Positions 21,629 to 55,134 of a stretch of 64,000 nucleotides of DNA are shown piece after piece. How positions within the stretch are numbered: the first letter of the stretch is position 1; the number at the start of each line of letters is the position of its first letter. This stretch comes from Daphnia carinata (taxonomy: Eukaryota). The stretch is from NCBI RefSeq assembly GCF_022539665.2, contig NC_081331.1:9734001-9798000 (forward strand), given 5' to 3'. The notes beneath the pieces are model-generated. The model saw nothing but the letters and a program-made list of their open reading frames with translations. It was not told the origin of the DNA and searched no databases. Position numbers and translations under genes: made by a program.

Positions 21629-21876
21629 GATTGTCTGAATGGAGATACTTCCAAAGTAAAAAGTTTGTTGTAAAGGTCGACTTCTGAAAGCAAAACGGAT
21701 ATTGTTTAAAATGTGTATAGTTAAATGGCAGCAATGAACGGAAATGGAAAAAACTAAATCACTTGTTTGGATTCTTCTTTAATTAAGTTTCAATAACAAA
21801 TTGGGTTGTTAAAGATGGCGAAAGAAAAACTGTCCTACCTTTAGAACTGCTGTTTCTTTTTTCGCTGCTGGACGAA

Positions 21877-21913
21877 TGCTGATTAGAAAAAGGGTGATGG
21901 CGTGCCTTTTAAA
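21877..21913 (-). promoter_or_regulatory. Core promoter of collagen gene 3
   Basis: TTTAAAAGGC at 21913-21904, Inr-like TCAGCA at 21882-21877, then an AG|GTAGG donor near 21838. Confidence 0.6.
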
Positions 21914-27282: not shown

Positions 27283-28865
<1,583 letters not shown>

Positions 28866-31167: not shown

Positions 31168-34100
31168 TTAGTTGTCCAGGTCGTAGCTCTGTACGATTGA
31201 TGCTTTGCGCAATTCGATCATTGGCATGATACCGTTTTCCTGCTAGGATGAAAACAAGAAAGAAACATCGGGTGAATAACAAAAGCACATGAACACGCAC
31301 GTCAAAGAAAAGGGAAAGTGAAGTAGCGTTTTTTTTTTTTTCGACGGTTATTGAACTTTTTTTCACAGGGCATGGACCAGTTTTGTACCCAAAAGATTTA
31401 TGTCTTGCTCCATAAAAAGAAAACACGCAATCTTTCTTTTTCTTTTCCGTCCTTAAGAATATATGTATATATAAGAATAAAAGATAGTATAAGACGAACC
31501 CCGTGAAGAGATGGGACGTCGTGATTGGTCGGAACATAAGTGTGACTCGGGGGCGTGCATCGAAGACAACTGCGTCTCAATGTAGGCCGCTGGCGGGATC
31601 CTTGGCAACGCAACGCGAAGCGAAGTTCCTCGCCCATCTCTGAACAGAGCGATTGCTATGCATAGAGAGAAAAAAAATGGAACGTGGGTATTACACAGAT
31701 AGAACAAGAAATCACCAATTGAAAGACAAGTGCGCAAAAGACAAGGTCCTCGTTTGAATTTCGCGGAATTTTTGGGGGGCGATGAAAACAAATGAAATGT
31801 ACGTAGGGGAAAGTGACTGTTGCTGAAAGGATGTGAAAGCGAGACGACCAACTGTTGGTCTGAGCCGTTCATCGCAGTAATTGAAATGGAGCTTAAAATT
31901 ATAGCTTGGTTTTATACCTTCTCTTGCTGGGCGTTGCGTTTCGAGTTCCAGCAAAACTCCAGTATGGCTACAACGATAGCCATGGCCAGCCCGCACAGCA
32001 GGACAACAAATACGCCGCCTGTCATGTGGTTGCGAATTTCCCCAAATGGCAAATCGTTCGCATCGCCAGAGAAATGCGGGGCGTAATCCGGTTGGAAACG
32101 GACGAGCGATCGGACGTCCGGAGAAATGCATAGATAGAGAGCAAGGAACCAGACAATCGATTGTTAGAAAGAGCAAAGGAAAAACGGTCGTTTGCACAAA
32201 AAAGAAGTTGAAAGAGAAAGGCTGTTTTTTATTTGATTTTCAAATAGAAGAAGAGACTGACCGATATTTTCAACGCCCAAGGCACTGGCTTTCGACTCTT
32301 TATTCTTATCGTCTCGGTTGCAGACGTCGCCCGTGTCCTTCCACCACTATTTGTTGATTTGATTGCAAAAATGTAAACGAATAATTAATTTATTAATTAA
32401 GGTAATGGGCGAGGATGTGACTAAACATTGTTGGCACTTATTTGTATCATAAAAAGAAACCGTTTTTATTTTTGGCAACTCATGTGAATAAAAATAAAAA
32501 CAAATTGAAAAATAAAGAAATCGTGAAGAGCCGCATCGCTCCTTTAATCATACCTTGTTGTATAGTAGGTGAATGGAGCCTTTCTCTTGCAGTTCCAAAA
32601 TGGCCAACGAAATTCGATCCCGCCAAGGCGACCCTGTTAATTGCCAAAACAAGAGAAAACGTAAAAACGATTTGAATGAAAATGGGTTTGGCGACAGGCT
32701 AGTGCCAAACCAAGCGAGTCGGCTTATTTTGCTTTTTTACGTCCATGACAAAAAAACATTGAAAATTAAGATAAAAATTGATGTCGTAGATTAAGGACAG
32801 ACCTTTCGGTGTTCCAATGCCGTAGCCTTTGGAGTCGAGGAGACCCCCGATTTGGGTCAAGTTGCAATTGCGCTGGACGACGTAGTCGAGGGTAGTCGAC
32901 TCCATCAGAAAGGCAAAATTGCCTTCCATTACGCGCTTCGTGCCTTCCTCGTACGTCGAAACGAAGACGGACGGCTTCTTGCTCTCCATGTAACGCCACA
33001 TTTTCTGGTATGTCTCGATCCGAGAATCCTGATTTCATATACGACATCATCAAAAACATCGATTTATAAAACAATTTTTTTTTTTAATCTTAAAAGCTAT
33101 ACACAAAAAAACATTGACGGACGTTCAAGGTTCCGCGTTTAGAAGGCCATTGGGGGTGAAAAAATAAAAAGGGAAAACGATTCAAAAGAGCTTCACTCTC
33201 GCTGTCGTTTTATTATTATTTTTTTCTTCTGTCGACTTGCGAAGAAGAAGAAGAAAAATGGAATGACTCGGCAAAGAAGTGACGCGTCAGTAGAAACTGG
33301 GTTATCCCTTAAAAGGTCATCATTTTTAACTAACATTTTACAGCTTTTGATGTAACAAAAGAGGGAGGAAAGCCAGTTGGACGGGCTTGAGTGCTCATCC
33401 GTTCGGATGAGACCGGTCCTGCCCTTGAGATCAGGTGATATTTACACACACACACAAAGAGAGAAAACAAAAAAAAAAAAGCTATAAAAGTTTCCCATAC
33501 AGCGTGATGCCCATTTTAATGAAGCTGCCACCATAGAAAGACGAGCAAAGTCGTGAAAAAAAAAAAACCCGAAGAGAAAGTGAAAGGGATGGTATAATTA
33601 ATGGGAATATACTTTTTTTAGAGGAAAAGAAAATGGTAATAAAGTAAATATATATATACTCGAAAGAAAGTCATGGTGGATCCTGCGTCGAGCGTGCCGT
33701 AAGAAATTTCGCTCTGGTCGGCCAAGTCCTCGACCGAGTCGATAGGCGCAATCATTCGTTCTACGGTGAGGAAGGCCGCCAGATTGGCCGTGTACGACGA
33801 GATAATGATCAGCGTGAAGAACCACCAAATGCCGCCGACGATCCTCGTTGATGCCGCCTGTTTAGTCACGCACGACACGCGACCCAGACGCAAAGAAGAA
33901 TCAAAGTAACACGACTATTAGCGTCATTTCTCTCAGCTTATGATTATGAGAATTGATTGGGTTTTTTTTTTTTGCGTCAGCATTGTTTGTCCGGTTGTTG
34001 CGGGATGGTTAGGTGGGATGATGGATGAAGGAAATTCTTCTTTTTTTTTTGCCATTTCTTAGCGCATTAATTGTTGAGTGTTTTAAAAATTCGAAAATTG

Positions 34101-37100
34101 CGCATAATCGTTTCAAAGCTGCCACCGAGAAAGACGTTATTGCACGCACTGCGTTTCATCGCTAAACACAAACATACAGAGAAAATGAAGAAGGAGAGAA
34201 GGACTTAGACGGGGAGTGAAAGTTTCAGTTAAAAAAAAAATAATAATAATGAATAAATACAAAGAAGAAGAGGCTGAAAGAATCCCCACGCTTCCTGACT
34301 TTCATGCGTCGCTCCCAGTTTAGGGACCGAAAAAAGAAACATCACGTAAGCAATACAACGCACGACACAAGACACGAACGCAGACAAACGGGAGAACACG
34401 AAAAAATTGTCGATGTATTAAAAAATTCGAAAGTTAGGAAAAGAAAAAAAAAAATAAAGAAAAAGGAAAAGAAAAATAAAATAAATAATTATTGATTCAC
34501 AACGATCACCAACAAAGGCCACTATTGATATTCAACAAGCCAATGGAATTCGTAAAAAAAAAAAATATGCATTATTTTAAGGGAGGTAGTGGGGGCATGA
34601 GAAATAGGGGATGGATTCAGCGGGTTTACCAAGTCAATCCCGACGGCTCGTATGCAAAATTTTGCGGTCAAAAAAGCGGAACTGCCAGTGTACGAAAATG
34701 TTGATGGGAAAAATTAAAGCAAAAATGGGGCATAATCTACAGCTGCACATACTCGCCTGGACAGGTGACTTTTTGTTAGGTAATTTTTATGTTACGTGTG
34801 TGTGTGGTTTGAAAAAAAAAAGAAATGGCTTTTTGGTCTTTCTTGGTGACAGATGGAACGACTTCGGACCAATTTGCGTACTGGCCACTAAAGCATACTA
34901 TTGGCTCGAAAAACAACAGAAGAAGAACGCGATAGGGTTCGAACAGCATATTAGGGTCAATTTCGGGATTGAAGGTAGATATCAATTAAGAATAACAGAA
35001 TATTAAGAAAAGGTAAAAAATATAGCGAGGTAGGTCGGGGTTGGAATGTGTACGCACTAGCTCAAATGAATTACTTGCCAAGATGGTTTCGCTTGAAACA
35101 ATCTTGTCTTGGATGAATGAATAAGAACAATGTCTCATATTCACATTCCAGTTTGTTACAGACTAGCAGTTGATTTCATCTCTTCAAATGCACGAAAATT
35201 TTGCTTGACGTGAATCGCATACGAGAACAAGGTGTAGGTGAGGTTTATCAAATAAAATCAACTTAATGCAAATAAAATGAAATTATTGAACAGAATTTTA
35301 AAAAAGAAAGAAAACTAAATCGGAAACGGCCCGTGAAGAAGAAAAATGAACGGAGCGGCCAATGAGCCAGCGAGAATTCGGTCCTTTTGCAGATCGAAAA
35401 GAATACCTTGGGATTGAGATCTGATCCTTGTTGCATGAGAGTGCCGATGGTGAACCAGAAACTGTTGGCCAGCGAGAAGTCGTTGCTGCTGGCCAGGGTG
35501 GCATGCTCGCTATCGAACAATGCGTCTGTATTGTGCGGCTGTTGCAGAATCCGGTCGATACCGCCAATGCTGCCGGACAGGTAGTGGTGGCAGTGGTGAC
35601 ACCGGCTGCCCACTCCGCTCCCGTTCACATTGTCGTGCCATTCGTAAGGCGTGAAGCGGGCCACCACCCACATGGAGAGCGAGACTAGGACGTAGGCCAG
35701 CAACAAGAAGAGCCAAATCTCCACGGCCAGTGGATTCATAAAAGAGAACAACCGCGTCGGAGTCGGCGTCGGAACCTGATCACATTCGCATACAACTTGT
35801 TTGTTTTGTGTCTCATTTTAACATTTAAGTTGCTTTTTTTAATAATCGCTGTAACGTTCCGACACTGTACCGCATGGATTCTGAACTCAATCGCATCTTG
35901 CATTTCACCCAATTTAAATAAAATAGGATAAATAAAAGTAGATTTTGATGTTTAGCTCTAAAAAAAAAAATAAAGTGAGGCCATCGTCTTGGGGGCAGCT
36001 TTTGAAACGTTCCATTTCGGATAGAAAGCAATGGCAATATTTCTATTATTTGGCAGGCTGATTGTTGCGATGGTCGGACAGAGAGAGATTGGCATTGAAG
36101 AGGATAAAAAAGAAAGAGGACAGGAATTGAAGCGGTAGGCTGCTTGAAGAGGGTTTGTGATTTGTCGTTTATAGACCTTGGGATTGAGTCCTGATCCTTG
36201 ACGGAGGAAAGTGCCAGTAATGAACCAGAAACTGTTGGAGATGGAGAACTGATTCTCGACCACGTCGCTGTCAGCGTTGCAAGGGTGAGGGTTGTTCCAT
36301 TCGTAAGGCGAGAAGCGCGCCATGACAAATAGCGTGAAACTGACGAGGATGTAGGCCGCCATGACGTACAGCCAAATCTCCACCGCCAGTGGGTTCATAA
36401 AGGAAAAGAGACGCGTCGGCTGGCTGGTCGGGATCTATTCACGACACCCATTTCATTATGTAAATCGCTCTTCATCATTTTTTTTTTCTCTAAGATTCAT
36501 GTTCTACTCTTTCTGCTTTGAATGGGGGGGGACATAACAATGGGAGTTGAATAAACACACAGATTCTGATTTATTTTTTGTTTTTTGTTTTTTTTTCAAA
36601 AAGAAGTTGGTGTTACGAATGAAAGGACCTTTAATCAGCTACATTGAAGACTACCACTGTGGTCCCACTTTGTTCGTCTTTATTCGTTCAACCAACTTTA
36701 AAAGAACTTTCACTTTGCGTTTGTTGACTTGTTTGAAGACGGTCCCGAAAAAAGTGCGGTCAAGGCGAACCGGGAGAAGATATATAATTTTTTTTTTATC
36801 ATGTTTACTACGAGCTCTATAGTGCGAAGGCCATCCTTATATCAGCAATCAAAAGACAGAGCCGAAAAATATTCAAATGTCACTAAGAAAACGTATGACA
36901 TCAGCGGCAGGTTTTTTATTTTTCCATGTTTCTCCTCTTTCGCTATTGATTCTCTTAGGTCCGCTCAAAGGACTGGCCTATTCTTTTTTATTTATAGACG
37001 TATTTCTCAGACGACCACTAAGATTTGTTGCATCGATAGCTAGACGATGAAATGTCGATAGGTTTAGTAAAACCTTTTTCTTTTTTTTATTACTACTGCC

Positions 37101-40100
37101 AGTAAAAAAAGATTGAGAAATAGAGACGAGTGATGGCTCGCAAAACCCTGCGAAACGATGCTACTTTCTTAGTTGTGAAATCGAAAACGATGTCGTCAAA
37201 CTATCAATTGGAGAGGCTTTTTGGAAAAAATACGAAAACAGTATTTTGAATCGTAAAAAAATGAAAGAATGAACCAACCTTGAACAAGATGCTAATGCCG
37301 AGGTTCATAAAAGGCTTCGTAAAATCGATGACCATTTCACGGGCGTAGTTGATCGTCATCGATCCGACGGCCAGATCAGCTTTCTGTAATTTGAATTGAC
37401 GTCATGACTTTTTTTTTTTTTCTTTTAACGAATTCAAATGTGGCCGCATTATTGACAGCGTCGCAACACTTGAAATGTGAATGCATTAAAAAAGAACAAT
37501 GAGTAACGGCACCTTTTCGAGAATCTGGCGGACGATGCCGTTCCATTCACCCGTGTCGGGATCTAACGCTCCGTATTTCTTGTCGGGTACCAGCTCAATG
37601 ACGTAATTGAAACCGACCATTCCTGTAAAATAATAATAATAATAATAATAATAAAAAATACAGGAATTTTCCTTGTGGTGAAATCTGTTTGTGGTTGGAA
37701 TCAAGTCATGCATAAATCATTGCGAATTGGGATTGGCAATAAAAATGATGGCGAAATCTCATACCAGCAATGGCTTTGAGTAGGTCGATGCAGAATCCCT
37801 CGTAGCGGTCGTTGCCGGTCAGATTACGTTCCGATCGAACCATCACGTACGGCATTTCCTGATGCGACGCATCAACCCGGTAAGTACAGAAACATTTAAA
37901 GAAAAAAGAAAAGAAGGAAGCATTAGATAAAACGAGACGCTATTTTTGCTACCGTAACATCAAGCGGAGCATCATGGAATATATCAATCGTTTACTGATG
38001 ACGGTTTCAACTCCATCAGAGCGGACGACCATTAAAAGATTGGCAGCATTGAAACTTTATTTTTTTTTTCTTTGTTAGCTACATGATCGAGCAAAACAAA
38101 CGAGGGCCTTTCCTTTTTTTTTGTTCCTTATTCTTGTTTGTTATTTTTGTTGTTGATCGGTTTGAAGCCCAAGGATCTAGCATCCAATTCAAGTTCCCCT
38201 TCCATTGCCTATCCAACTATTTTTGAAAAAGGAGAAACCTACACGAAGTGAGAGTATAAAGGGGAAAAAAAAGGGGGAACGTAAACACGATCTGTAATTA
38301 AGATCTCTCTCCGCGTGATTCTTTTTGCTGCTGATGCAGCTGAGCTTTCTCCCTTTACTCCCTAAAGGAGAGAAAAGAGGCACGATCCGTTCTTTAAAGC
38401 AATCTTGTAAACACAGATCAACATCGTCCCAATTCGTTTTCGCTCGGCCGAATCGAGCGCGTCTACAGGTGAGTCCAAAGACATCGGGTTAAATTAGAAA
38501 AAGGCCTTTCTTTCTGGATTGAATCCATTCCTCAATGCTATTAACTTGTTTTTTTTTTTTTAATTTTATAAATAAAACCATCAGCCAATAAGCCTAAACA
38601 GCGTCATCCCTTTATGGAAATGCGCGTGAACTGATGGGGCCGGGAAAACGAATCAACGCGTTCAAACGACGTGTTTTTACCTCGTTGGTCATGACGATAA
38701 GAGTGATGTTGGGCGTACTGCCTTCGTAAAAGGCCACCGGATCGGTAATGTTGAGTCCCATCTGACCGTTCCACTCGCCAACTTTCGTCAGATTCTCCCG
38801 CTTCAGCTTGAGCAAGTCCAGCGTGATATTGGAGCGTCGCCCTTCCTTGAATCGGACGGGTCCCGTCAGTCCGACAAATTCCACCTATTAAATTTTTTTT
38901 TTGTAGGAAAAGCGTGATTGTTGTTCAGTACATCAGGATGCGATTAATTTAAAAAAGAATGGGAGGGACAATACTAATGTTGAGCTATTCATCGCCTGCC
39001 CAATAGGAACGTATAGCCATAAATAAGAAATGTTGCACCTTATCAGTAAACACAACACACAGACACGCGCACAGCTGATGTATAGATCAAACGGTATAAA
39101 TCAAAGGCTACTATAGCAATCTGAGTTGCGATCCATCTATTTTTCTTTCTAGTTTATATTGTGTGCCAGTGGATGTACGTAGCGATATATATGATTTCAT
39201 AGCTACCGTGTTGATGTAATTGAAGAGCGACGATCCGTCATTCCACGGCTGCTCGATATCGCACGAGAGGTTGGCCAGCCTCAGTGCTGTGCCCCGATCC
39301 AGGGCGGCCAGACCGTGAGCCAACGCCATAACGCTGTCGTAGACTAGAGCTGGCTCTGCCTGTTTATCGACCATAGTGACACAATCAGTTGAATATCAAG
39401 CGCTCGCAAAGAAAAACAAAATTGGGGAAAAGCTGTGAATTGTTTCAATAAATGGCCTACCTGGATGATGTTCGATTTATTGAGAATGCTTTGGCCGATC
39501 GGCTGGAACTTCTCCATATCTCTCAGAAGAAGCCGCGTAAAGTTACTGTCAGCGTCGACGATGCGGAACGCCGAAATGTTGACAAAGTTGTACTTGAAAT
39601 CTTCCAAGTCAAACGTTTCCAAATCCTTTGAAAGAGAAAGTCCCCACGAAGAAGAAGAAAATGTAATGAAATTGATGGCAATAGAATAAAAACAATGACG
39701 TTCACAGTGTTCCATTACCGGCGAAGCGAAGAGGTAGTGATACTGATAGTCGTTCATTTGTAGTTGCAGAACCTGGCGTGAACAAGTTGTGCCACAAATT
39801 GCGTGTTAGAATGTCCGACCGCACACGTCGTCATCATTATGAAAATCGAGAGGAGAAAAGAAGAAACAGAAGAGCAACGATGAATTGCAATATAGCTGTG
39901 TCATTAACATATTTATGCAGCATATATCACTGTCGTGTTCTTTTTATTAACATATTTGGCGAGCGGCAAGGTCTCTTTGTGTCGTGCAAAATGGAGAGTC
40001 AAGTCAAGCCGTTACACCAGCTACGCGCAGATTTATTCATTTATTATGAAGTTGTTGATGGCCGTGTTCCCCTTCTTTCCCCAGTTGAGGTGCAGGGGGG

Positions 40101-43100
40101 CTGAAAGAACGAAAATGTGTGTATATATACGGTGCGGAAAAAGAAAAAAAAAGGCCGTACAAATCTACGTTGGGCTATTAGTGCCGTCGTAAAGTCAAGA
40201 ATGTGCACGTTGGCGGTCCCCAGTCATTTTTCATATTTCCCGCTCTCTCTCTCTCTCTTTCTCCTTTCTTTTCTTTTTTCACGCAAGAAGGAAAAAAAAG
40301 GAGGGCGTCAAGGAGACACTCGACTCCCCAAAAACTTTAGAACACAAAGACAAGAGAACACGTCCTCCCCCCCCCCTTCCTTTGATAATTTGGCCCGCGT
40401 TCACGTGATTTGGGTCTCGGCCGAGGGCATCGTTAAAAACACAGAAAAAAATCGTTGGTGTGGCGGTTCGTGCGGTCGTCACTTGTGTCGGAAACCTCCC
40501 CCTCCACCCCCCCCCCAACAAAAAAAAAAAAAAATTCGTGGAACAAAGGGCGTTGGGTAACATCCATAACGTTCTAACTAGTGCTGGTGTTCTTCGACCT
40601 TCCCTCCCGCACACAGCAAAGATGTGAAAGATGCCTCTAGCAAGTCGGGACGAGGGTGGACAAACGTCGTTACAAACAGATTTATGTCGCGGGCGGCTTT
40701 TTTGCTTTCTCTGAGGTTCGCTGGAGAGCAGAAGAATAAAAAGAATTTTTTTTTTTTCCTCCAAGCGCATTGGTATTACAATCATCTCCCCATATAAGTC
40801 CCCCACCCCCCCATCTGATGGTGTCGCCACAACTCGAAATGGGGAACTTTTACTGATTTGTGGAGGGGGGTCTTCGATCTCCATTGGGCTTGTATAATAG
40901 ACGAAGATATAGTGTTCCATGAAGAGAGCGGCTTCTCTTTTTATGTTTAGGCGTATCGATGCGAACGATGGACGTCCGTGAGTAACAAATGAACGGACTT
41001 TCGGGGGGGGGGGGGAGCTTGTTGTACTTCTGTTTTCACGATGTGTATTTTTTTTATTTGTATGGAACTTACGGCTCTGAAGAAGGTGTGGACGTGCTCC
41101 GTCCGCGTATCGACGATGATGTTGTTGATGTCTCGTTGCTTGATCTCGCGCAGCACTTGGCGGTAAGTGCTCACCGTTCCTTGGCGGATGTACACCTCCA
41201 TTTTGCTGGTGGGCGGCGATCGTACCAAATCCTGCAGTCGTACCAAACCTGACGTAACACACCAACAAAAGCAAAGATGTTGTAGTTTTAGTTTGTCTGT
41301 TGAAACGAGCAATTGGCGAAATAAAAGAAAAAAAAAAGAAAAGAAAACAACAACTCGTTAAACGTAGAACTTCTTGTGATTTAGAAGCGCGTTGCAATCG
41401 ACGTAATTGAATTGCACTTTTGAAATGTCGTGACACGTTGCAAAAACCGAAAGTCTCGCCGCAAACCCGTCGAGGGAGGAAGCATTTAGGTACAAAACCC
41501 ATTGAGTTCATTGCAGTCAGTTTCGGGAAAAAAGAAGTGAAAGGAAACTGTTGATCCCTCGTGAAAAAAAAATGACGCAGTGTGTTCACGCAAGATTTCT
41601 TCCCGCTCCTCCTCCCTCCCTTCCGAAAAAATTGGATCAACCCTATTTTCGTTTCATTTTCGTTCTTCTTCTATTTGCTTGTTGTATGCACACTTCAACA
41701 TTTGAATGGCGGTGTGATGCCACAAAACTCCCCCCCCCCCCTCATCTTCGCTCCAGCCCAAAGTAAATAAAAACCTATCGAAAAGAAAAATATATAATAA
41801 AATAAACAGATTGAGAAACAAAAGTGAAGCAACGTATGTGAAGGATATACTGTTGCCCAGACAGCAAGTAAAATGGGAAAACGGGAGTAAATAGACCTAC
41901 ATGAAAGATGATGATAGGAAAGCCTTTCTATATCCAATAAAGGAAACAGAGCTGGATGCTGGGTATAGCAAAAGCACCGCTCACAGAGAAATTCTCATAT
42001 CGCTTTTTTTTTTTGCTGTTATACATAAATCTAAATATATACTCTATATAGTAACAGCTAGGAGAAAATGAATTTTCCTTTTATTTATTATTATTATTAT
42101 TTTTTTTTTTGTCTTCCTTCCCGTTTAGCCGGAAGCTCGCCAAAGCATGAAAGGATCTCTGGATGAAGAGAGAAAACAGCACAATTCGATCGGTATATAC
42201 ATATATAGAGAGAGATATGCCTATAGTAATATTATATCGCCTCCGGCACCGGATATTTCAGGGCTCTCCGACCCTTTTTTTTTTTTTTTTTCATCGGATT
42301 TATGCGATATCGGTAGCCACCTCATTCTTTCGTTTCGATCTATAAGAAAGTCAGGAATAAGAAAAAGTCTAGACGAAGAATAAAAAAAAAAACACGTAAT
42401 AACGTAACGCAACAAAGTGCATTACGAGTAGACGAAGACCCTTTACAAAAAAAAAAAAAAAAAAAAAAAAACCCTGACAAAATAAACATTTAGAAAATAA
42501 ATAAATAAAAAATTATTAGCTGGAGTTCCGACCCCTTTTCCTTGGCCACATGCCAGCTGTGTTATTGTATATATATATACAGTAGTCCCTATTATTATTG
42601 GTAGGCAATGAATCGAGACTCGAGTTAAGTGCTGGCCAACATTTGGCAAATTTCACATGGAACTCTCTCACATCATAACGTGCTAGTACTTTTCTTCTTC
42701 TTTTTGAAAGGCAATATCTGCAGTGGCCCATTTTAGTTTGTCTACAGATTTCTTCGGACCGCATTCGTCCGACTTTTTTCTAAAGCATAAAGTCTTTTGA
42801 CATCAACAAAGAAGCAAAAAATGGTGCAATGTGGGCCAGTTGTCGCCCATTGCGCTATGGAAACTTGTTCGTCATCTCGGGTTCATCTTTTTTTTCTTTT
42901 CCTGTCATCAAAAAGAAACTGAAAGGGCACCTTGTCGCATGAACAAAAGCGAACAAAAAAACAAATAAAGCGGGGCAAAACAATATGACGCAAGTTGACG
43001 TGCTCTTTTTTTTTTTTTTGTTTTTATCGAATTAAAAATGAAAAGGGAGAGTACACGCCAAATAGGATTTTCTTGAAACTGGCACCGATATGCTTTGGGT

Positions 43101-46100
43101 CGCAGGGTGTGCGACAAATCAATACTATTTATCGGCTATGGTTGTCTGGACGTCGTCAGTGTTAAACTTAAAAATATCGAGCCAAAGTTTTGTTCTGTTT
43201 TTTTTCTTGGAAATGCTTTGCTTTGCGCTGTCAGATATGCAAATTTTTTGCGTGTGCATTTTATTGTTACCTCCTTCATCTTCGTAGATGATGGCCACTT
43301 TGGTCCAGTTGAGGAAGCGCATCAGGTCCTTGTAAGCGGCGTTGAGGACCTCTTGCGATGGATGCAAATTGATGGAAAGCTCGTTACGGGCGCCCGTCCG
43401 CGACTCCAAATCCAGTCGCGTCTCCAGGTGCGGAATATCGAGCGCGTCGCAGATGGACTGGACGTGCGGTCCGAGCAGCGGATCCGACGGCCCGAAAATG
43501 GCCTGCACTCCAAAGTCGATCTGCTTGCAGGCTATCGTCAATTGAATAAAAAAAAAAAGAATGGAAAATTAAACGTTATCATATGAAATTAAATAATTCG
43601 TAAGTATAAATATCTGTGGTTTAATAGCCATATTTATTTATCGATGATAAAAATGGAAATTTTTGGTTTCACCTTGATCTAGTGAAACAATTCATTGCCC
43701 ATCGTCATGAAAACATGCGGGTTATGTAGAGCAGAACATGTAATCTAAGGTGTATTATCACGAAATCGAGATCTATACTCCGGCGTTCAAGGTTTTCACA
43801 CCCTTTTTGAACGCATCAATAATCATAGCGTTTCGATCTTGTTGCATAGACAATTTGGGCCATGCACTCGACCGAAACATACCACAACTATTTCTCAATT
43901 TCTTTCTTTTTTTTTTTTTTTTATAAACCAAATTTGATGATGCTTGAAAGAAAGAGAAATCAAGTGGTCATCTTCAAGGTTGTCGACGCAATTAAAATGT
44001 TTTCTTTTTTTTTTTTTTTTTTATCCCATGTAAAAAAAAAAAGAGAGAGAGAAAGAAAGAGAGAAAAGAACTTCTGAATGTTATTAGATGTTTTCGGGGG
44101 CTAACCGGCCGGCCTTGGTTCGTGAAAGTGACGAACAGTTGGAGGTCACCGGTTTGAACTAGACACTATGTGATGTGAGTTCTTCTTTAATAATGCGCTC
44201 TTAGAAAATTTTACGGGTCCGGTCATTAAAAACAAGGCCACCAGCTCTTTTTTGTTCCTCATCTTTTCTTCGTCTCCCTCTTGAACTGTGGCCCTTTAAA
44301 AGTAAGAAGAAAAAAAAACGGGCATTGTCAAAGTTCACGATCATATCCGTTTCCCTTTATGATCGATGACGAGTAAACGCATATCAGATCTTTGTTGCAT
44401 CCCCCCTCCTTTCCCCTCCTTCGTTACGTACCCCGGCTTTCTTCTACATTTCCTTCTTTTCGATCCTTATCGTACCGGCTCGCATCCGAAAGGAGTTTCT
44501 TGATCCTTATTGACGTTTTATAATGAAACCGACCTTTTTCTTCTTCTTCTTGCTAAATCGAGATTTGTCATTTATGTAAGCGAAAATCGAAACGTGTCCA
44601 AAGCTAAAGTCGAAAGTTATTATCGCCAAGCCTTTTGTCTTCATTTATACAACTCGAGGCTTGTGTGGGATATGTTTTCTATATATAGATATATATATCA
44701 ATGCAGATAGACGTTGAATAAAAGAAAGTTGTCTGACTCGTATACCGGGAATAACTAGGCGATCTATTGCATTCAAGGTGCTTTGCAGCAATTGTTGTGC
44801 CACGCTTCCGTTTGATTCGGTCAGAGAGGAGGGTCGCATCTTCTATGGAAACAACCGTGACACATCGTTTTCCCCATTATTGCACAAGGATGTGTTCACT
44901 TGGCCGCATCCATTCACGCCCTTTTCCTCAATTGTTACACGGACTGTACACGAGCCATTGCCTGTCAATGGAAATGGATCCCTCCCGGTCGCACAATACG
45001 TCAGATCAATCATCTCTTATATACGAATGAGCCTTTTGCTTTCTTTTTTTTTTTTATTGGCTTTTCGATCTTAGCTCTTTAGTGATACGAAAGAAGAGCC
45101 TCTCTACGATATTCTACATCTGTTTCAATCAATTTTTGGTTTGGTATTAATGATAAAAAATTTAATAATATGCACGAGCTTATTCATTTTAGTGGCCTGG
45201 TGAGATGAATAGCATCAAATATTACGTGAAACAAAAGCTCTGGTCCCGGTCTGCCCCTCATTCAGCTCCCCCTCTTTTTTTTTTTTTAATTATTAAAATC
45301 GCGTATTTATGACATCGCCTGGTGCATATCGCCGTTAAGTCTGGCTTTATTATAGCTGAGACATCTTCATTAAGAATTCTAAGGAAATAACGGAAATAGA
45401 CAAAAGGGTGAATGACGTAATAGCTCTCATTAAAGCGACAGGCTCAAGGCCCGCAAAAACAGGCCGTTAATCAACTTTGTCACTTGGTTCGTCTTTAAAA
45501 AAAAAATAATAAAATGTGGGGTTTAATTAATCCTTTTTCTCATAGTTTGTAGCCTCTCAGCCTTGGAAATAAATGACGAAATGGGGGGGGGGTGTGCTGA
45601 CTTTATATCTCACCACCTGATTTTATACAACCCCATCCCTCCCAGAATGAACGAGTTTTGCGTGATGGGTGGCGTGCGTGCTCAAGCGGATACAATTTTC
45701 GGGGATCCACTGCGCAGCGATATATTTGATTGTCTCTGGAACGCAGAGTGGTGCTGCTTTCAAGGATCCAATCTGATCTCTGAGCACACACACACCCATT
45801 TTTAGATACTACCGCAAAAAAAAAAATTGCGAACGAACAGTTGGAAGTAAAAACAAAAATCAAGTGGTCGCGTAACAGGAAAGAATATCACGTTTAAAAA
45901 AAAAAGGAGGGGGGGGGCGAAAAAAAAAACAGATCAAAATATCTGAAAAAGAAAAGAGAAAGTTGTTGCCAAATACTTTTTTTTTTTTGATGATATCATG
46001 ATGTAAGATTTTTTTTTTATTTAAGGTGGCTACGTGCGAGCGTGCTCGTGAGAGTCCCTCAATTGGAAAAAAAGGGGGCAAAGGAAAGAAAGAAAAACAG

Positions 46101-49100
46101 AATTGACTCGGACAATAAAGACTTGTGTCCAGCTTCCCGATAAGGTCCCACACATCGTCTCTCAGGGCCGATGAATCCGGGACCTGATCTGTTTTCCCTT
46201 TCTTTTTATTATTATTATTATTCTAGGATTCTGTTGGGGAGGAACTATACGTGCGTCTGTGAGGGACCTTTTTCGTTGTGTGACAGGGTAGAAACATTTT
46301 GATTTAAAAAAAGCAAAACAAAAAAAAAAAAAGGTTACTGTCCTCTTTTTTCTGTTTCTTGACACATTAGATATAGGCCGAGAAGAACATCGATACGAAG
46401 CGGCCATCGGAGTGGACAAAAGAACATCCAGACGACACAAGAAAAAAAAAAGGCGGAAGGGTTTAATACAAAAAAAAAAAAAAAAAAAGAAATGTCTTAT
46501 TCTGTGTTTGTCGGCACATCTCTTTCTCGTTTGTTTACAGAGTCTTATATAGCCGATGGACAATTTCGTTTTTTTTTTTCGATTATCCGACATGTCCTGA
46601 TGCCTAGCACTCGTGTTCGCTACAGAGGACACTGGATTTACTTGTTTCCCAATATCATCCGGATCAAAAATACAAACGCACTAAAGAAATATCTTGCGTG
46701 ACAGCCTTCAGTTATTCTTGGTCAGTAGTTTTAAACTTATCACAAAAAAAAAAAAAAGGGCTGTTAAGGTTTTTATACTACGATTACGCGCCGTTTACGG
46801 CGAGTTATCCTGGAGGCTGTGTACATTTGCATGCGTCCATGCAAATATGCAATCCCTGCGGGGCGATATATATTTGTTAGGCGTATTAAACATTTCATCT
46901 ATCGCATAACTGGCTACCGTTTTTGGCCGATACCGTCGACATTTTTTTGAGTTAAGTCCGGCTATATAAGAAACGCGTGATAGTGAAAACAAAAAAAAAA
47001 CAAAAATGCTGCATGAAATATTTGGGTAGATCCTTTTATCTTGTTGGGTTCTTCCCCTCCCCCCCCCCCCTTTTTTTTTTTCATCCTCACATTGAAGATG
47101 CCTATTGATTAATCAAAAGAATGATAAGAAGCCCAACACGCTGAGAAAATAGATGAAGGAATGACGATTACACGTTATAGAATAAATAAACATTCTTTTT
47201 TCTTCTATTCCCCGTTTGATTATTTACTTCTTCAGAGATCCAAAGAAAATGTGGAGGACAACACAGAACGCTGCGAGCGGAGAGTGTGAGAATGATGGCA
47301 TACGTGCGTTGTATATGCCTCTCACTTTTTTTTTTCTTTCTACTTCGTGATGATTGGAGAAAGTGGTGGCTCTCTCGGTAGATGACTTCTTAAACTTCTG
47401 TAGTCAAGATACACACACACCATTTGGTATTCGAGTGAAAGGCCGCAAAAAAAAAAAAATGGAAGAAAAGAAAAAAAAATGTAAAGAAAGAAGGAGAGCT
47501 GCAATAATATTAAATTGTATACATAAATGGATATTCGTTTTCCGTTTGTCGCTTTGAGGCTGGGCCCTAAAGGTGGAACTCGGCCAGTCGATAAAAACGA
47601 AACGATTTTCGTCCCCCTTTTTTAAATCTGGATGATTTATTTATTTTTAAAGCAAAGTGATTTGTGGCTTTTTGGCGAGAGAAAGCAAACAAAAAAAAAA
47701 ACATGGACTTCCACAAACGATTCCGTATAGTGCGGTCCTTTTCAGCCACAGCCATACGAACTGCACAACAACTTGTGAAAGCGTCTTTCTTTCGTTATTT
47801 TTTCCCCGATGCCGTTGAAAATGGTTAACACAACGCCTGGCCATGTATATAAACGTGCAGTTTTCCTTGTACTCCCACGGACTGCGAGGCAAAACTGTCA
47901 ATACAAGCGGGAAAAACCTGAGCTAATATGCAAATTCAATTTTAATTTACGGATAGATTTAGCCCGTAGGTTATTTTGAAGAAGAATAGATGACCAAATA
48001 AAATGAAGGTAATAAAAAAATATTAGAAAAAACGAACGTTTGTAGCATAACAGCCATTTAATATGCAAAACAGGAAAATTTTAACCATCTTTTCTCCGGA
48101 TGGGCATTCAAAAGAGTATGGATCATCATGACCTGAAAAAAAAAAATGAAGCCTACAAACTTTGATCCCTTGTGTAGAGACACCCACAGGGTTCTCCGTA
48201 TAATTCAATAGCGGATGAGGCTTTTGTTGGTTTATGGCACACACACCTTTCCCCGTTTTCTCTCCTCGTAGTTGGGATTCTCTTTGCCGTTGGCGTTCCA
48301 TTATTCACGCTCAATGTACGGAGGAGTTTAAACATTAGTACGGAGAAAGAAGAGAGTGTCCTGGTTCCTCTCTAGACTCTTCTTTGCCCTCCGTTCGGGC
48401 AATCATCATTATAATTTCTTGACTGGAATATGGTAGCTACTTTCACGCTAGGATCGCACTAGTTCTATAAGGATTAACTATTCATTTATTATTAAATTTT
48501 TTTCTTTTGGAACTTCCTTGTAATAATGAATTAGTGCAGTCATTAACCACCTTCACATGACTGGACGAGAAGGTCGTGATATTCGCTGAAAATTAATTAT
48601 GTACCCCGTCCCAGGGTATTCAGACGTCTGAATCTTATAAGAATTTTTACTAATAAATCGTTGGCGAAAAATAACACGTGATGAATTGAATGATGGGAAA
48701 TCTATGGGAGCTTGTCACGTAGAGGTCTCATTAACAAAGTCGGACGATAGTTGACTGTTGATAGTCCATAAATATAAGTAATAGCTATTTGAAGGATTTC
48801 AAAGAAAATCAGACGATCCGTGTGGCATAATGTTGGTTAAAAAAAAATGTGTTAGAACTGGATACGGTGGCGCTCCGTTTCAAGGAGATCAAAAAGGAAA
48901 TGAAATGTTGTTCATGATTTTTGTGTGTGTTGGCAGTCACGAGTTTCCGGTCCGACTCAACAGTGCTCTTCTCGATATGCAAATCTCCCTTTAAAAGATT
49001 TCTTTTTTTTTTTCGAGGTCCAAAAAAAGGACACATTCCTATTTTGATTGATTGTGACGGATACGTTACAGTACTACCTAACGGTATAACTTTGAATAAT

Positions 49101-52100
49101 TTTTGCCCCCCCCCCCAAGAAAAAAAAAAAAGAAACAAACAAAAAATGCAGTGTCCCGCTTTTGCATTTCTATTGCGGTCCACGTGAACGAATCGCTCGC
49201 TTGACCGTAAGAGAAGGGAAACCAAACGTTTCACATATCTCTCGTTTTTCAACAGTGCCTCTTTCGTGCTGTGTAGGCCTTGTTTTCCATTGGCCATCTC
49301 AATCTGGAGAAGATAAAGCCAAACACGACACAGACACGACAGAATTTAAAGAGAGAGAGAGCGGCAATCGACGCATTCATTACTAAAAACCCGAGAAAAA
49401 ACCCGAAAGACAGATCGTTCATGGCTACACATTTGCTTTTAACTAATCGGCCGAGTGCTGGTCACGATGGAAAGGGCATTTTATTTCTTTTTTTTTTTTT
49501 CGCGGAAAATCCTCGGCTATGTTTATGCCAATAGAGAAAATAGGTGTGGAGACGAAGACTGAACGTGACTAGTATTTATACAAATTAGTTCTTGGCCACT
49601 GGTAACAACAGAAAGACAATTTTCTTTGTCCAACCATTTATTTTCTGGCCTTTCTCTTTCGTGTTAAACGAGCAACAATAGGGCAGTAGAGGAAAGAGTT
49701 TTTTTTTTAACATTGCTGCTTTACCTGCATTTGCCCCTTTTTTTTTAATGGTATACAAAAATTTGAATGAGATGAGCGCGAAGAGAAACTTGGCCGGGCA
49801 CGCACACGCCATTGGCTTATTTTTATTTTATTTTTTTTTTATTATTCCTCCTTTTTAACCCACGCGATTTCACCGAGCGCAAAGTGCACTATTTTGTCCA
49901 AATGGAACAGCATAAGTTATTATAATAGGCACGCGGAAAACGAAAGAAAGAGAACTCGGAAAATGTCATTCGTCATGGGATCGGCGAACTGGAGTTTGTG
50001 TCTCATGTTTTCCCGCATATCGCCAATAATTGCGTGCGAGCTACGCTCTCTCTTTGACAAGCGCACTTCATAAGCTGTATCTGATGTCGACATTTGCATA
50101 TCATGTACCAACTGAGGATCGTGTACGTTTTTTGATGTTTCGCCTTCGAGTTATTAACGTCACGCTGTTGTTAGCGTTTATTTGTTTATCGCTTTGTGTT
50201 TTGTGTAGCAGCGGAGCCGATTGGAATTGAGGGATGATATTACGGGAGAAATTGTACCTTTCTTGGACGTGCGAAAGCTGTCGTCCCTCGGCACGTACTG
50301 AATGTCGTACACGAGCGTCGTGTTGGGCAAAATGGTGCGTTCGCGATTCAGCCGGTAGACGGCGTACTTGAAGGCCAACTCGGCGCTGCCGTCCTTCTGG
50401 TCCTCTCTGAAGATACCACCTGTTATTCCGATCACGTTTTTTTTTTTTTTTTTCGTTGTTTTGACATTTACACGTGTAAAAAGGGAGGAGAAAAAAGAAA
50501 GCACATCATTAGCATTTCTTTGCGAAAGACAAAAAAACTAAACATAATAAACAAAATAAATGGACAAGAAGAAATGTATGAAAAAAAAAAAAAAAGATGA
50601 GAATGATAAGGGCTCGATAACAACCACCCGCTGCCGATCGTCTTTGTGCTGTGTCTTGTAATGATGCTTCTATTCCGTACATGGAACAAATGAATATTTA
50701 TGAATCGATTGACTTGAGCAGTTGTATCAATCTGTGGCGTCCCCTTTTTCTTGCTGCTTTTGAGCCTCGTTTTGTTTTAGTTGGTTTTTCCCTTTTTTTT
50801 TTTTTTTTTTTTACATCATGGAAAGTTTTAGCGGCAGAAGGCCAATGAAGTTTTGAATATCTTATTTTTTTTTTTTACAGTTTATAACCAGTGGGTTTTA
50901 TACGTCAATCTTTTGGACTTTTATAACATCTTCTTTCAAGAATGGACGTCCAAACTTGGCCGTTACGAAACGCTAAAGTTACGAAATCGTCAACAACCAG
51001 TTTTTTAAAAGGGTTGTATCTAAAAAAATGTTGAATCTGCTTCGCTCCGTTTAGTTTGTCGACAATGCGGCGTTACTTAAAATGAAAATACGTTCCCAGG
51101 GTAACATTGCGCAGTCCGTCCTGAACGGCAGAAACGTACCCTACGTCTTTTACGAAATAAAATGGGGATAATAAAAGTAAAAAAAACGGACTGATAAAAG
51201 CCTACAGTTGAAGCAGGAACGATTGCGTCATATTTCCCAGAGCGAGGGGTTAACCTAAAATTCCAGTTAAAGTCTCGTATAGCCTCGTACCCAATTCGAA
51301 TTGTCTTTTTTTTTTTTTCTTCTTAAATGACAAAAGAGGGAAAAGAACTTGTCTCATCGGTCCATATTTTTTTTATCGTAAATACTCGTTTTCCTGTCAA
51401 GGTGAAGAATTCGGGTACGTTTTGTTGATCCAATTCTGATGGGCATTAACATTTTATCGACGCGTGCCCTACTATCTTAGATTTTTACTTTCATTCATCG
51501 CTTTGTGCTGCAGTGAAGAGAGAAGTTAGTTCTTGTGCCTATACGTGGTTTCGCATAATTCTCGTGGCAAAGTTCCTGCTGATAGAACATCTGTTCCTTT
51601 GTTTATGCATGCGGCGTGATAAGTTTTATTTGAACGTCTACCTTAAAAAAAAACGGTACTCAATCAGATGGCAAAAATAAAAAGGGCCCGAAAACAGAAA
51701 GTTGCTGATTTCTGTCCAAGAAGTTTTGAATAAATTCATCGAGGGCTATTGCGTATATAATTTTGTGATTCTTTTGTTTGTTTAAAAAATATTATTTATT
51801 GCGACTTCAATACTTTTTTTTCGAAGGGGGGAGGGAATCATTACATATCGTCTGTTTAACCTGCGCTCACAATTGAAAATTTAGGTGAAGTGGCAAAAGC
51901 TTTTTGGTTCTGAGAAAACAAATGCAAAAGCTGCTCCCAAGTGAAGTGTATAATGAAGTATCACGGTTACACGAATAAGCAAAATCAACTATTCTTCTTC
52001 TTCTAAGAAATCCATTTACGGCGGTATAAATTGACACGAATATGTTCCCATTCTCGGAATACCTTTATTATAAAGAATCGAAAGCATGTAAAACGCAATG

Positions 52101-55100
52101 ACCTGATCAGCTATTAGCGAGGTCTTTGCTCCTACAGAGAAAAAAAAAGGAAAAGAGATTGGATTAAAGTCGAAGGTGTGTCAAGTGAATGTCTGGCTTT
52201 CACTCAAAATAGAGCCATTACTACCGTTTCATTTCTTTTTCTGATGCGGTACTCTGTAATTGCTAAATTTTGCTTTTAACACGACGAGCACATTATCACA
52301 TGACACCCTTGCGATTCGCAATTCATTCCCTGGATTTGCGAAGGTGTCTTTCAAAATGTAGGGACTTTAAATATATAACGATAGTATAAAGTCATTCGGG
52401 TCGTATCAGAATTCTCATATAACCAGTTACACTCAGACAGGTAGCAGACAAGTAGAACTGGGCTGCTAGTACCTGCGTATATGGAATTAAAAGCTTTGCC
52501 TTTCCTTAGCGAATTGGATATTGAATTTGACGAATAACCAATTCAGGGTCTTATAAAACAAGGAAACTAAACTTTCGAAAAAATGACGAATAGAATCACG
52601 ATTGGCAAAAAATAATGAAATCGTAAAAAAAAAAATTTAGAGAAAGAGAACGACAACCCAAACTACAGTTTACATTCAAGGGAGGAGTGGGAATCCCCAG
52701 ATTTCTAGTGCTGTTGTACTGCCAACGTAAGTTGGTTCTTCGATCGGTCGTTGTGGCGCATAGTGCAGTACACACAAAAATCTATTTAAAACAAAAAAAA
52801 AAGTTAAACCCATACCCTGCAACTAGCGAGAGAGTATGTCTCAAAAAAAAAAAATATATAATATGTGTTCTCACAGTTTTCCATGGCTTCTCGCTAATAA
52901 GATGATGAATATAACGTAACCTTACAACTGAACGTACACAACGTTTCAATGGCTTGGGTCGTCAAAGTAGAGAGGCATATATACATCTAGTTAAACATGT
53001 AACTATTGACAGCAAGTTGCCTTGTACAAGCAAGCCTACGTACATGAACACACCGAAAAATGGGCCAATGAGCCTTTGCTGGGGTGGGGGGGGGGACATC
53101 GACGTCCATATCTGCTGACATAGACTTTAAAGTAATCCTTTTTTGATTTTTGTTTTTTCTTTCTTTTGGGATGGCACACTGCTCCTCATGTATGGTCTCT
53201 ATATAAATCTATACTCTTTTCCTTTGAAGACTGTAGCTGTAATAATGTAGCTTTTAGATGCTCGATGAAATTAATGGTTAGCTAACAAAACTGAGGTGAT
53301 GAATAGATTATTTTCTATCGATCCTCAATTTTTTCTTTGCGCATATGGAAGGCTCGGAGGGTCGGAGATCGACACGTTTCGATCTCGATGAACCACAACT
53401 CTTCTGCCTGTATACACGATGTGAATAGCTCGCAAATGATGTGCGGCCGACTGCTATCGATGATAGCGTCCGTCTTCCATTGAACATATATGCCTAATAA
53501 TATTCTATAGCTCCATGCGCTTGTGGTGTTTCGACAATCTCCTTGGTTACAACCTTTATCGCCATCTAGCCGCATTTTTCTTATACTTTCTCTCACGAAT
53601 TTTTTTTTTTTTCACGTTGAATTATCCCCACGACAACTACAAACTCCAATTCGATTCGTCGATTTAAAGACATGCAGTCTTATGTACCTAATTAAAAAAG
53701 GAGTCCCTTTTATGCGCCGAGGGGTAGTTACACTGTGTTCAAGAAATAGCATAATATTATAATAATCCTTAACGATACAGCATAAGAGAACATACACGGT
53801 AGCCTGCCAAGCAGCGTTAAGGTTTCCTTCAGCTGAGGAGGATTGAGTACGGTTCGGAACAACCTACACAGCCTGTGCGTTATAGATCGTACTTGTGTAC
53901 TCTTAGTGTAGTCTGTAACCAACCCACGCGTTTTTTTTTTTTTGGTAGTTTTAAGGTAAAAACTACAGCCCAAGTTGATTTTTGATGCCATTGCCGCCTT
54001 TCATCTTCTTTCGATTTTGCACGTCCAAAATTCGTAAATTTTAGATATGAAATCGACAGCTGGGATAGTTCTATCATTCACCTGAACTCTGCATGTACAC
54101 TCTCTTTATTGGATGAAAAGTCTTTTCTTTTGGCTATTCTCCGCGTAGCTCTTGATGGTAGTCTTTTGAGGAGGGAGCACTAATCGGATTGGTCGCGTAT
54201 CCTCCTATATATACAGTCTTTTTTTTTTCTCTTTATATTCCTTGAAATCCTGAATCTATTTCAATTTATCGTTCGTCCAAGTCGAAATGGACGTAGATTG
54301 AAAGTAGTTTCGTTCGTAACGAAACGATCGTTGTTTGCTGTTGCTTGTTTAATTTTTGGATGGCAGCCTAGCCTTTAACTGGGCAAAAGATTACGTTGTT
54401 GCACCATAATACGAAAACGGATAAGAGATGGCTGTTCTTCAGGCTGCCCTGAGTCGGATGGAAACTTATCTATGTACTAGGATGCCTTACTATATCAAAG
54501 GGACGTTGCGCAATACGAACGGCGGATTAAACCAAAGACACAAAAATGAATGATAGACGTGCAATAAAGAAATAATTAAGGTAAGTAATGGGAAGCAATG
54601 CAGAATGGAAATAAAAGATGGAAAACAACAACAACAAAAATACCCTTCCTGCCACGAGAGGCTCGCAAAAGAAATGAATAATTCCTTTATGTTTATGCAC
54701 TTCAATCAATCGTGTACAATAACGAATTGCCCCCCTGCCCGCCTCAATGCTAATAACGATTTCTATACTGATTGATAGAAAAGCTTCGTTTGCTCTTCTG
54801 CTTATATCGATTTTTAAAAGCAAAGTAAACGAACGAAAAAAAAAAAAAAGAAGTTGTGCTGCTGTTAAAATTGAATTCCGTTTTTCGTACCTATTCGAAT
54901 GACGGGCGGAAGCGCTGAGACGCACTGGACGACGAAGGCGAGGGCTAAGAGGCAGGTGAACAAGCGGCTGTTCCATCTCGGCGGCCGAACGGAGAACGAC
55001 GAATAGGGCGACAAGCGGATATCACCTGCCCGGAAGGTTTCTTTTAGAGTTCCGCTAGTTGTCGTTTGAGCGGACGACGTCGACGGAAGGAGCCATTTCC

Positions 55101-55134
55101 ACTTTTCTCGCTTCCTCACTGCTGCCGCGGCCAT
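31168..55134 (-). CDS. Ionotropic glutamate receptor, kainate type (GRIK-like)
   Basis: Exons (minus): 55134-54891, 50419-50258, 43531-43271, 41248-41073, 39772-39719, 39625-39461, 39359-39207, 38884-38681, 37858-37765, 37622-37513, 37383-37279, [36434-36177 OR 35775-35407], 33857-33660, 33028-32803, 32633-32554, 32346-32262, 32018-31918, 31655-31500, 31239-31168. Phases are consistent throughout. Signal peptide, ATD, S1 ([27 protein letters not shown]), M1-M2, M3 [12 protein letters not shown]2 ([23 protein letters not shown]), M4 ([12 protein letters not shown]). Confidence 0.95.
35407..35775 (-). CDS. Glutamate receptor pore exon B (M1-M2), Q at the Q/R site
   Basis: 369 nt, phase 0-0, AG/GT flanked. 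Encodes [46 protein letters not shown]...[23 protein letters not shown]. The Q codon CAA is at 35433-35431. Confidence 0.9.
36177..36434 (-). CDS. Glutamate receptor pore exon A (M1-M2), R at the Q/R site
   Basis: 258 nt, phase 0-0, AG/GT flanked. Encodes [86 protein letters not shown]. The R codon CGT is at 36203-36201. Confidence 0.9.
37631..37654. repeat. (TAA)8 microsatellite next to a splice acceptor
   Basis: Read directly from the sequence. Confidence 0.85.

What the first reader, a model, noticed from the sequence alone, without database searches (positions are those of the whole stretch)
35407..36434. Genomically hard-wired Q/R switch: duplicated, likely mutually exclusive pore exons in a kainate receptor
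Seen: two homologous exons 401 nt apart, each covering the whole M1-M2 segment from [16 protein letters not shown] to GSxLNPK. Both are intact and phase 0-0, between the single S1 exon and the single M3 exon. Exon A reads FLRQG and exon B reads LMQQG. Known: in vertebrate GluA2/GluK1/GluK2 this residue is switched by ADAR editing (CAG to CIG). R gives Ca2+-impermeable, low-conductance, polyamine-insensitive channels; Q gives Ca2+-permeable, inwardly rectifying ones. The R codon here is genomically encoded as CGT, so no editing is needed. Inference: splicing replaces editing as the Ca2+-permeability switch, a convergent solution. Including both exons would duplicate M1-M2 and break the topology, so they should be mutually exclusive. 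I have an unverified recollection that insect orthologues (Drosophila CG11155-like) have similar isoforms, so novelty needs a literature check.
Basis: partly seen in the sequence, partly recalled or inferred. Interest (0 to 1): 0.9.

Follow-up and report, generated by a model that had tools for sequence, protein, structure and literature searches.

The report
Splicing-chosen Q/R pore in kainate receptor
A water-flea glutamate receptor gene carries two side-by-side versions of its channel-pore exon, one with arginine and one with glutamine at the site that vertebrates change by RNA editing; both are spliced into RNA in a close relative, and conserved intron sequences are predicted to pair so that only one is chosen, which would let splicing set calcium entry.

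Summary
Observation confirmed. This Daphnia-type gene is the orthologue of fly CG11155 (ukar). It has two intact M1-M2 exons: A (R, codon CGT, aligning to GluK2 residue 621) and B (Q). RNA contigs of a congener (two runs, one study) splice both from the same upstream exon; no A-to-B joint is listed. The R-then-Q pair is in gene models of decapods, isopods, barnacles, branchiopods and insects, and in a second paralogue. All 26 R copies form one clade. The 13 chelicerate models read have one segment. New here: (1) three conserved intron blocks, two after the exons and one before the M3 exon, fit a downstream docking-site/selector switch (predicted -32.0 and -32.9 kcal/mol; 0 of 1000 shuffles as strong); (2) the R exon also lacks the +4 acidic residue (G in 121 of 121 R copies, D/E in 114 of 115 Q copies). 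Against strict exclusivity: a fly cDNA and many fly models include both exons or neither. Calcium permeability is untested. Not found in ten paper searches, but key fly papers were unavailable. The isoforms are already in public annotation, and the scan noted the exon pair before in another genome.

The parts
37279..37383 (-). Single upstream S1 exon; common donor at 37279
   Evidence: joints to both A and B
36177..36434 (-). Pore exon A: pre-M1, M1, short loop, M2 with R at the Q/R site and G at +4
   Evidence: joint 37279-36434 in runs X1 and X2
36201..36203 (-). Genomic arginine codon CGT at the Q/R site
35987..36013 (-). Conserved intron block X, predicted selector for exon A
   Evidence: 27/27 identical in L002 and L037, variant in L044; duplex with Y -32.0 kcal/mol
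35407..35775 (-). Pore exon B: pre-M1, M1, 37-residue longer His/Cys-containing loop, M2 with Q at the Q/R site and D at +4
   Evidence: joint 37279-35775 in X1 and X2
35431..35433 (-). Glutamine codon CAA at the Q/R site
34826..34863 (-). Conserved intron block Z, predicted selector for exon B
   Evidence: 38/38 identical in L037; duplex with Y -32.9 kcal/mol
34104..34138 (-). Conserved intron block Y, predicted downstream docking site, about 250 nt before the M3 acceptor
   Evidence: 35/35 identical in L037; its best two partners are X and Z
33660..33857 (-). Single downstream M3 exon
31168..55134 (-). Whole kainate-type receptor gene (CG11155/ukar orthologue), approximate start codon to stop codon
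   Evidence: tblastn of Daphnia proteins P0019 and P0126 across the window; start codon seen, stop codon; tree

Best explanation
This kainate-type receptor gene has a tandemly duplicated pore exon whose two copies are each spliced from the same upstream exon, likely mostly one at a time under competing intron RNA pairing, and the choice is predicted to give either a calcium-poor, polyamine-insensitive R subunit or a calcium-permeable, rectifying Q subunit. Mechanism in steps. (Shown) Exons A and B are intact, and both are joined to the S1 exon in RNA of a congener. (Predicted) Docking site Y pairs with X or with Z over largely the same bases. X:Y loops exon B out and brings exon A next to the M3 acceptor; Z:Y favours B-to-M3. 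(Inferred, no element found) Something else must skip A when B is used. (Inferred from topology) Both-exon or no-exon mRNAs are in frame but would put S2 on the wrong side of the membrane or delete the pore, so they are likely unproductive leaks. (Inferred from GluK2/GluA2 and from fly KaiR1D Q604R) R at the apex and loss of the +4 acidic residue together would lower Ca2+ permeability and polyamine block, probably dominantly in heteromers. My odds: mostly either/or splicing 0.85, RNA-pairing control in Daphnia 0.75, a permeability/rectification difference 0.75.
For: RNA contigs: joints 37279-36434 (depth 49.4 and 33.6) and 37279-35775 (31.7 and 11) in X1 and X2; no A-B or skip-both joint among the 12 listed. 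Two more metagenome contigs without introns at these borders, probably transcripts, read A straight into M3 or S1-A-M3 (L001, L006). Conservation: 115 of 120 listed homologues carry R then Q. All 26 R copies, from two paralogues, form one clade (100/99, 52 rows). R codons vary (CGT, CGA, CGC, CGG, AGA), so the residue is what is kept. +4 is G in 121 of 121 R copies and D/E in 114 of 115 Q copies. RNA pairing: X, Z and Y are the three longest exact words shared with L037 in these two introns (27, 38, 35 nt). X and Z are the top two of 1698 windows against Y (next -22.7) and of 1292 windows in L037. Y is the best of 76 intron windows for having two strong partners. 0 of 1000 shuffles of Y reach either energy. 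X and Z resemble each other, as expected for selectors copied with the exon (model in PMC6071210, passages read). In flies, KaiR1D(Q604R) escapes philanthotoxin block and fails to rescue basal release (bioRxiv 10.1101/2025.10.06.680643, passages).
Against: Fly CG11155-PB and cDNA HL08030p include both exons, although they stop just after the M3 exon. Of 120 listed fly models, 57 are R only, 26 Q only, 18 both and 19 neither. The D. pulex RefSeq model X6 includes both. The RNA evidence is contigs from one study of a congener; contigs drop rare forms, and the A-M3 and B-M3 joints were not listed because that organism's M3 exon differs by about 15%. No compensatory base change was seen because the blocks are identical between the window and L037, and L044 lacks its own Y. 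No X- or Y-like motif was found beside the exon pair in the insect loci, none of which reaches M3. In a placozoan receptor, R at this site increased rather than removed rectification (PMC12226733, passages). No channel function was measured.
Confidence: 0.68

Rival explanations
1. The two exons are loosely coupled cassettes. Both-in and both-out mRNAs are common and serve to turn down functional receptor, rather than forming a clean switch.
For: Both-exon cDNA HL08030p and CG11155-PB; 18 both and 19 neither among 120 listed fly models; every combination keeps the frame, so decay of mis-spliced forms would not enforce exclusion.
Against: No A-B or skip-both joint in two Daphnia runs; overlapping X/Z pairing to one site; the fly both-exon cDNA is also truncated downstream; automatic isoform models need only a few reads (own knowledge).
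Confidence: 0.14
2. Splicing is either/or, but the main effect is on assembly, trafficking or gating through the different M1 and M1-M2 loop. The R form is a poorly conducting modulatory subunit and calcium permeability is secondary.
For: Exon B differs in M1 and has a 37-residue insert here; exon B runs from 86 to 247 residues in relatives. R homomers conduct cations poorly (PMC12226733 passage). In the second paralogue it is the R exon whose M1 has diverged.
Against: The M2 halves sort by R versus Q across both paralogues while M1 and the loop vary freely; decapod Q exons have no insert (86 residues); +4 co-varies with R/Q.
Confidence: 0.15
3. The duplicate is an assembly artefact or a decayed pseudo-exon.
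For: Several exons of this window are oddly near-identical to a congener, which hints at assembly mosaicism.
Against: The pair is present in independent Daphnia proteins and contigs and across Pancrustacea; both exons are in RNA.
Confidence: 0.01

Closest known systems
Drosophila CG11155 (ukar) kainate-type subunit, with annotated isoforms
   Same: Orthologue. Same R-then-Q exon pair. R-only (PA, 910 aa), Q-only, both and neither forms are in public annotation. That ukar is CG11155 follows by elimination from gene lists, plus recall.
   Different: No paper found that notes the Q/R meaning of the isoforms. The fly Q exon is longer (165 aa in D. erecta). The X/Y/Z elements were seen only in cladoceran contigs.
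ADAR2 Q/R editing of vertebrate GluA2, GluK1 and GluK2
   Same: Same pore position (GluK2 621) and the same two residues from one gene.
   Different: The choice is by splicing and swaps the whole M1-M2 segment, including the +4 residue and the loop.
Mutually exclusive exons with a downstream docking site (insect 14-3-3zeta, Mhc, MRP1, as summarised in PMC6071210, passages read)
   Same: Tandem duplicate exons, a selector-like block after each exon, and one complementary site in the intron after the cluster.
   Different: Here the pairing is only predicted, with no covariation and no mutant test. No gene of this family came up in the passages searched (0 hits for CG11155 or glutamate).
AMPA receptor flip/flop exons (recalled)
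   Same: Mutually exclusive duplicate exons in an ionotropic glutamate receptor.
   Different: Flip/flop alter the S2 ligand-binding region and kinetics, not the pore.
Genomically R-encoded GluA2 genes in some fish (recalled, not checked)
   Same: Arginine fixed in DNA at the Q/R site.
   Different: There the R is in a whole gene copy, not an alternative exon. The unnamed R-only contigs L015, L032 and L042 look like this state.

Membership tests
Kainate-type ionotropic glutamate receptor (CG11155/ukar orthologue group) | Pore segment closer to GluK than to GluA; ATD-S1-M1-M2-M3-S2-M4 order | tested here: met
   GluK2 E 9.8e-32 versus best GluA 5.2e-20; exons in order by tblastn
Kainate-type ionotropic glutamate receptor (CG11155/ukar orthologue group) | Groups with CG11155 rather than with the second paralogue | tested here: met
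   Tested with the D. pulex orthologue P0019 as stand-in. The N-terminal tree of 24 rows puts it on the CG11155 side (SH-aLRT 98, unrooted); the C-terminal tree separates paralogue 2 at 100/100
Kainate-type ionotropic glutamate receptor (CG11155/ukar orthologue group) | Glutamate-gated cation current and kainate pharmacology | not testable with these tools
   needs expression and recording
Mutually exclusive exon pair | Homologous tandem exons, same phase, each spliced from the same neighbour | tested here: met
Mutually exclusive exon pair | Never or rarely included together or skipped together | tested here: inconclusive
   None in Daphnia contigs of one study; a both-exon cDNA and both/neither models in flies
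Docking-site/selector splicing control | Conserved intronic selectors, each complementary to one shared conserved docking site, with overlapping pairing | tested here: met
Docking-site/selector splicing control | Compensatory base changes between species | tested here: inconclusive
   Blocks identical in the window and L037; the L044 X variant still pairs with the window's Y (-31.6) but its own Y is not in the contig
Docking-site/selector splicing control | Disruptive and compensatory mutations shift exon choice | not testable with these tools
   needs a minigene
Q/R RNA editing site | Genomic Q codon recoded to R in mRNA by ADAR | tested here: not met
   R is genomic CGT in exon A and CGN or AGA in related contigs. 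Extra editing of exon B's CAA is not excluded; no difference there was among the rows shown (15 rows not shown)

The most novel reading that the evidence does not exclude
Before crustaceans and insects split, one pore-exon duplication gave an arthropod kainate receptor a splicing-based Q/R switch that does the job of vertebrate ADAR editing and goes further, changing the +4 polyamine site with it. It is run by a competing docking-site/selector RNA structure, was inherited by two paralogues, and was later fixed to R-only or Q-only genes in some lineages. In flies, the ukar exon choice would set the calcium permeability of the presynaptic KaiR1D/Ukar autoreceptor and so separate its calcium-dependent basal role from its homeostatic role.
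Probability: 0.45. Interest if true: 0.85.

Novelty: new variant of a known kind. Interest (0 to 1): 0.68.

Why it matters
Q/R control of calcium entry through glutamate receptors is taught as an RNA-editing device of vertebrates. A splicing route to the same residue, kept across crustaceans and insects, would be a clear case of convergence. It is directly testable in Drosophila, where ukar is required for presynaptic homeostatic potentiation and KaiR1D calcium permeability matters for basal release but not for homeostasis (bioRxiv 10.64898/2026.03.20.713276, passages). Work that uses only the R-form cDNA (PA) may be studying one of two channels. The predicted docking/selector trio gives exact bases to mutate.

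Tried and rejected
No whole genome is held for the window, so no search for a second Daphnia paralogue was possible. Steric exclusion by a distant branch point is rejected: the intron is 401 nt, with AG dinucleotides at 22, 38, 59 and 75 nt before exon B's acceptor. Exclusion by frame or decay is rejected: all four combinations keep the frame. Weak acceptors as the cause are not supported: pyrimidine content before A (0.29) and B (0.47) lies within the range of constitutive exons (0.24-0.82 among the 14 of 19 acceptors correctly placed on AG). An upstream docking site was not found: five upstream blocks (four patches conserved in L002 plus exon A's acceptor) gave best partners of -17 to -26 kcal/mol, none as strong as X or Z with Y. 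A fourth conserved block near 34524-34504 pairs with Z at -25.4 here but only -19.5 in L037; left open. No Rfam match in 33700-37400. No selector or docking motif was found beside the exon pair in termite-like or hymenopteran-like loci; these do not reach M3 and their strong inverted repeats look like mobile elements. A second M3 exon, which might explain the RNA mismatch, is not in the window; the mismatch matches congener L037 at 23 of 23 listed sites. Dating against chelicerates is unresolved: the tree has no reliable root. Run X3 did not cover the exon pair. A finer RNA lay was not obtained, so A-M3 and B-M3 joints in Daphnia rest on contig-length arithmetic. Li 2016, Nguyen 2024, Kiragasi 2017 and Hatje 2013 are not held, and the supplements of PMC6071210 could not be read; any of these could mention the isoforms. 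No structure or complex prediction was run.

Full report
Observation. The minus strand carries a kainate-type receptor gene from about 55134 to 31168. Between the S1 exon ending at 37279 and the M3 exon at 33857-33660 lie two homologous exons: A at 36434-36177 (258 nt) and B at 35775-35407 (369 nt), 401 nt apart, both AG..GT, phase 0-0 and open. Exon A aligns without gaps to GluK2 551-629, which puts its arginine (CGT, 36203-36201) at position 621; B has glutamine (CAA, 35433-35431). Exon A is 99% identical to Daphnia pulex and D. magna proteins, and the B insert resembles D. magna. The organism is therefore a Daphnia, by inference.

Expression. Three RNA runs were offered, all as assembled contigs. 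In X1 and X2 (one study) the S1 donor joins exon A (depth 49.4 and 33.6) and exon B (31.7 and 11). No A-B joint and no skip-both joint is among the 12 joints listed. The RNA comes from a congener: its M3 exon matches contig L037 at 23 of 23 listed differences from the window. That is probably why the joints into M3 were not called. Contig lengths fit complete paths. Other metagenome contigs without introns at these borders run exon A into M3 (L001) or S1-A-M3 (L006, L008, L011, L012). Contigs drop rare forms, so low-level co-inclusion is not excluded.

Conservation and age. Of the 120 best of 952 homologues, 115 have R then Q, 4 have R with a partial or diverged second copy, and 1 has two identical R copies. 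The ranking favours double-copy models, so this shows presence and not isoform frequency. Hosts span decapods, isopods, an amphipod, Artemia, Daphnia, and insects from mayflies to Drosophila. A second paralogue (termite, locust, mayfly, planthopper, beetle; a similar model in the barnacle Pollicipes) also has R then Q, but there the R exon has the diverged M1. In a tree of 52 exon copies all 26 R copies form one clade (100/99; 86 columns, bootstrap not fully settled, long branches flagged). The flanking region separates the paralogues at 100/100. The exon duplication therefore likely predates the gene duplication. Of 17 chelicerate models picked, 13 could be parsed, and all have one segment with histidine at the site. 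Whether chelicerates branched before the duplication or lost an exon is unresolved. Losses occur in both directions. Some hymenopteran models and a tephritid model of paralogue 2 are Q only. Unnamed genomic contigs L015, L032 and L042 have the R segment fused to S1 and M3 with no room for a Q exon.

Fly orthologue. The search from the D. erecta N-terminus returns D. melanogaster CG11155-PA (910 aa, R only). Among the 120 listed fly models, 57 are R only, 26 Q only, 18 both and 19 neither. CG11155-PB and cDNA HL08030p contain both exons and end four residues after the M3 exon. So co-inclusion does occur in flies, at least in a truncated transcript. This is the main evidence against strict exclusivity.

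How exclusion may work. Frame and steric exclusion do not apply. Alignment with cladoceran contigs shows the introns are mostly unalignable apart from short blocks. The three longest exact words shared with L037 are X (36013-35987, after exon A; also identical in L002), Z (34863-34826, after exon B) and Y (34138-34104, before M3). X and Z each pair with Y over overlapping bases, at -32.0 and -32.9 kcal/mol. They are the two best of 1698 windows across the region, the next being -22.7, and the two best of 1292 in L037. Y ranks first of 76 intron windows for having two strong partners, and none of 1000 shuffles of Y reaches either energy. X and Z resemble each other. I first noticed the complementarity by eye after seeing the conservation, so the scans are follow-up tests. 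This layout matches the downstream docking-site model described for insect 14-3-3zeta, Mhc and MRP1, and the duplication route proposed in PMC6071210 (passages). That paper notes the model explains only one of the two splicing choices. No compensatory change could be counted, and the elements were not found beside the exon pair in the insect loci, which do not reach M3.

Predicted channel effect. Besides Q/R, the +4 residue is G in 121 of 121 R copies and D or E in 114 of 115 Q copies. The +4 negative charge is a known determinant of polyamine block, and fly KaiR1D(Q604R) escapes philanthotoxin block and does not rescue basal release (bioRxiv 10.1101/2025.10.06.680643, passages). So the R exon removes two determinants at once, which one editing event cannot do. 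A caution comes from a placozoan receptor in which R increased rectification (PMC12226733, passages). Exon B also has a different M1 and a longer cytoplasmic loop. No function was measured here.

Prior art. Ten library searches (listings, plus passages of seven papers) found no description of Q/R isoforms of CG11155/ukar. The term 'Q R site' scored zero occurrences in every paper listed, so it probably did not match the slashed spelling and those two searches were weak. Four likely papers are not held. The isoforms themselves are in public annotation. An earlier finding of this scan (e1-7595653, another genome) reported the same exon pair and left either/or use open; it is not independent evidence.

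Verdict. The feature is real, ancient and expressed. It is best read as a mostly either/or pore-exon switch with a predicted docking/selector control and a predicted effect on calcium permeability and polyamine block. It is a new variant of known kinds; interest 0.68.

Noticed in passing
window 33028-31918 and 35496-35407 versus 33857-33660 and 31655-31499: Four consecutive exons and the 3' 90 nt of exon B are 97.5-100% identical to congener contig L037 (1/226, 2/80, 0/85, 0/101, 0/90 differences), while the M3 exon (32/198) and a late exon (23/157) differ by about 16% and the introns barely align. Either true ultraconservation, or the window's assembly took bases from another Daphnia's reads. 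It does not affect the R and Q residues.
   Followed up: partly
L015:933-1508, L032:1089-1726, L042:5699-6406: Unnamed aquatic metagenome contigs hold an R-only orthologue in which the introns flanking the R segment are absent and the Q exon is missing.
   Followed up: partly
L019:344-3414, L021:2950-5668, L023:2942-5660: A second paralogue with its own R-then-Q exon pair in genomic DNA; L030 and L026 show no R exon by tblastn between S1 and the Q exon.
   Followed up: partly
proteins P0536, P0549, P0551, P0580, P0584, P0588: Spider, scorpion, mite and tick relatives have histidine at the Q/R site.
   Followed up: no
window 34524-34504: A fourth conserved intron block that can pair with Z (-25.4 kcal/mol; -19.5 in L037) and might compete with Y for Z, biasing the choice to exon A.
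   Followed up: partly
window 36453-36435: The purine/GU-rich acceptor of exon A is conserved in L002, and several insect R-exon acceptors are also GU-rich.
   Followed up: partly
window 8257-25325 (minus strand): A cluster of Gly-X-Y collagen-like genes, several in tandem.
   Followed up: no
window 27286-28677 (minus strand): Exons resembling a tryptophanyl-tRNA synthetase (HLGN and KMSKS-like motifs; family name recalled).
   Followed up: no
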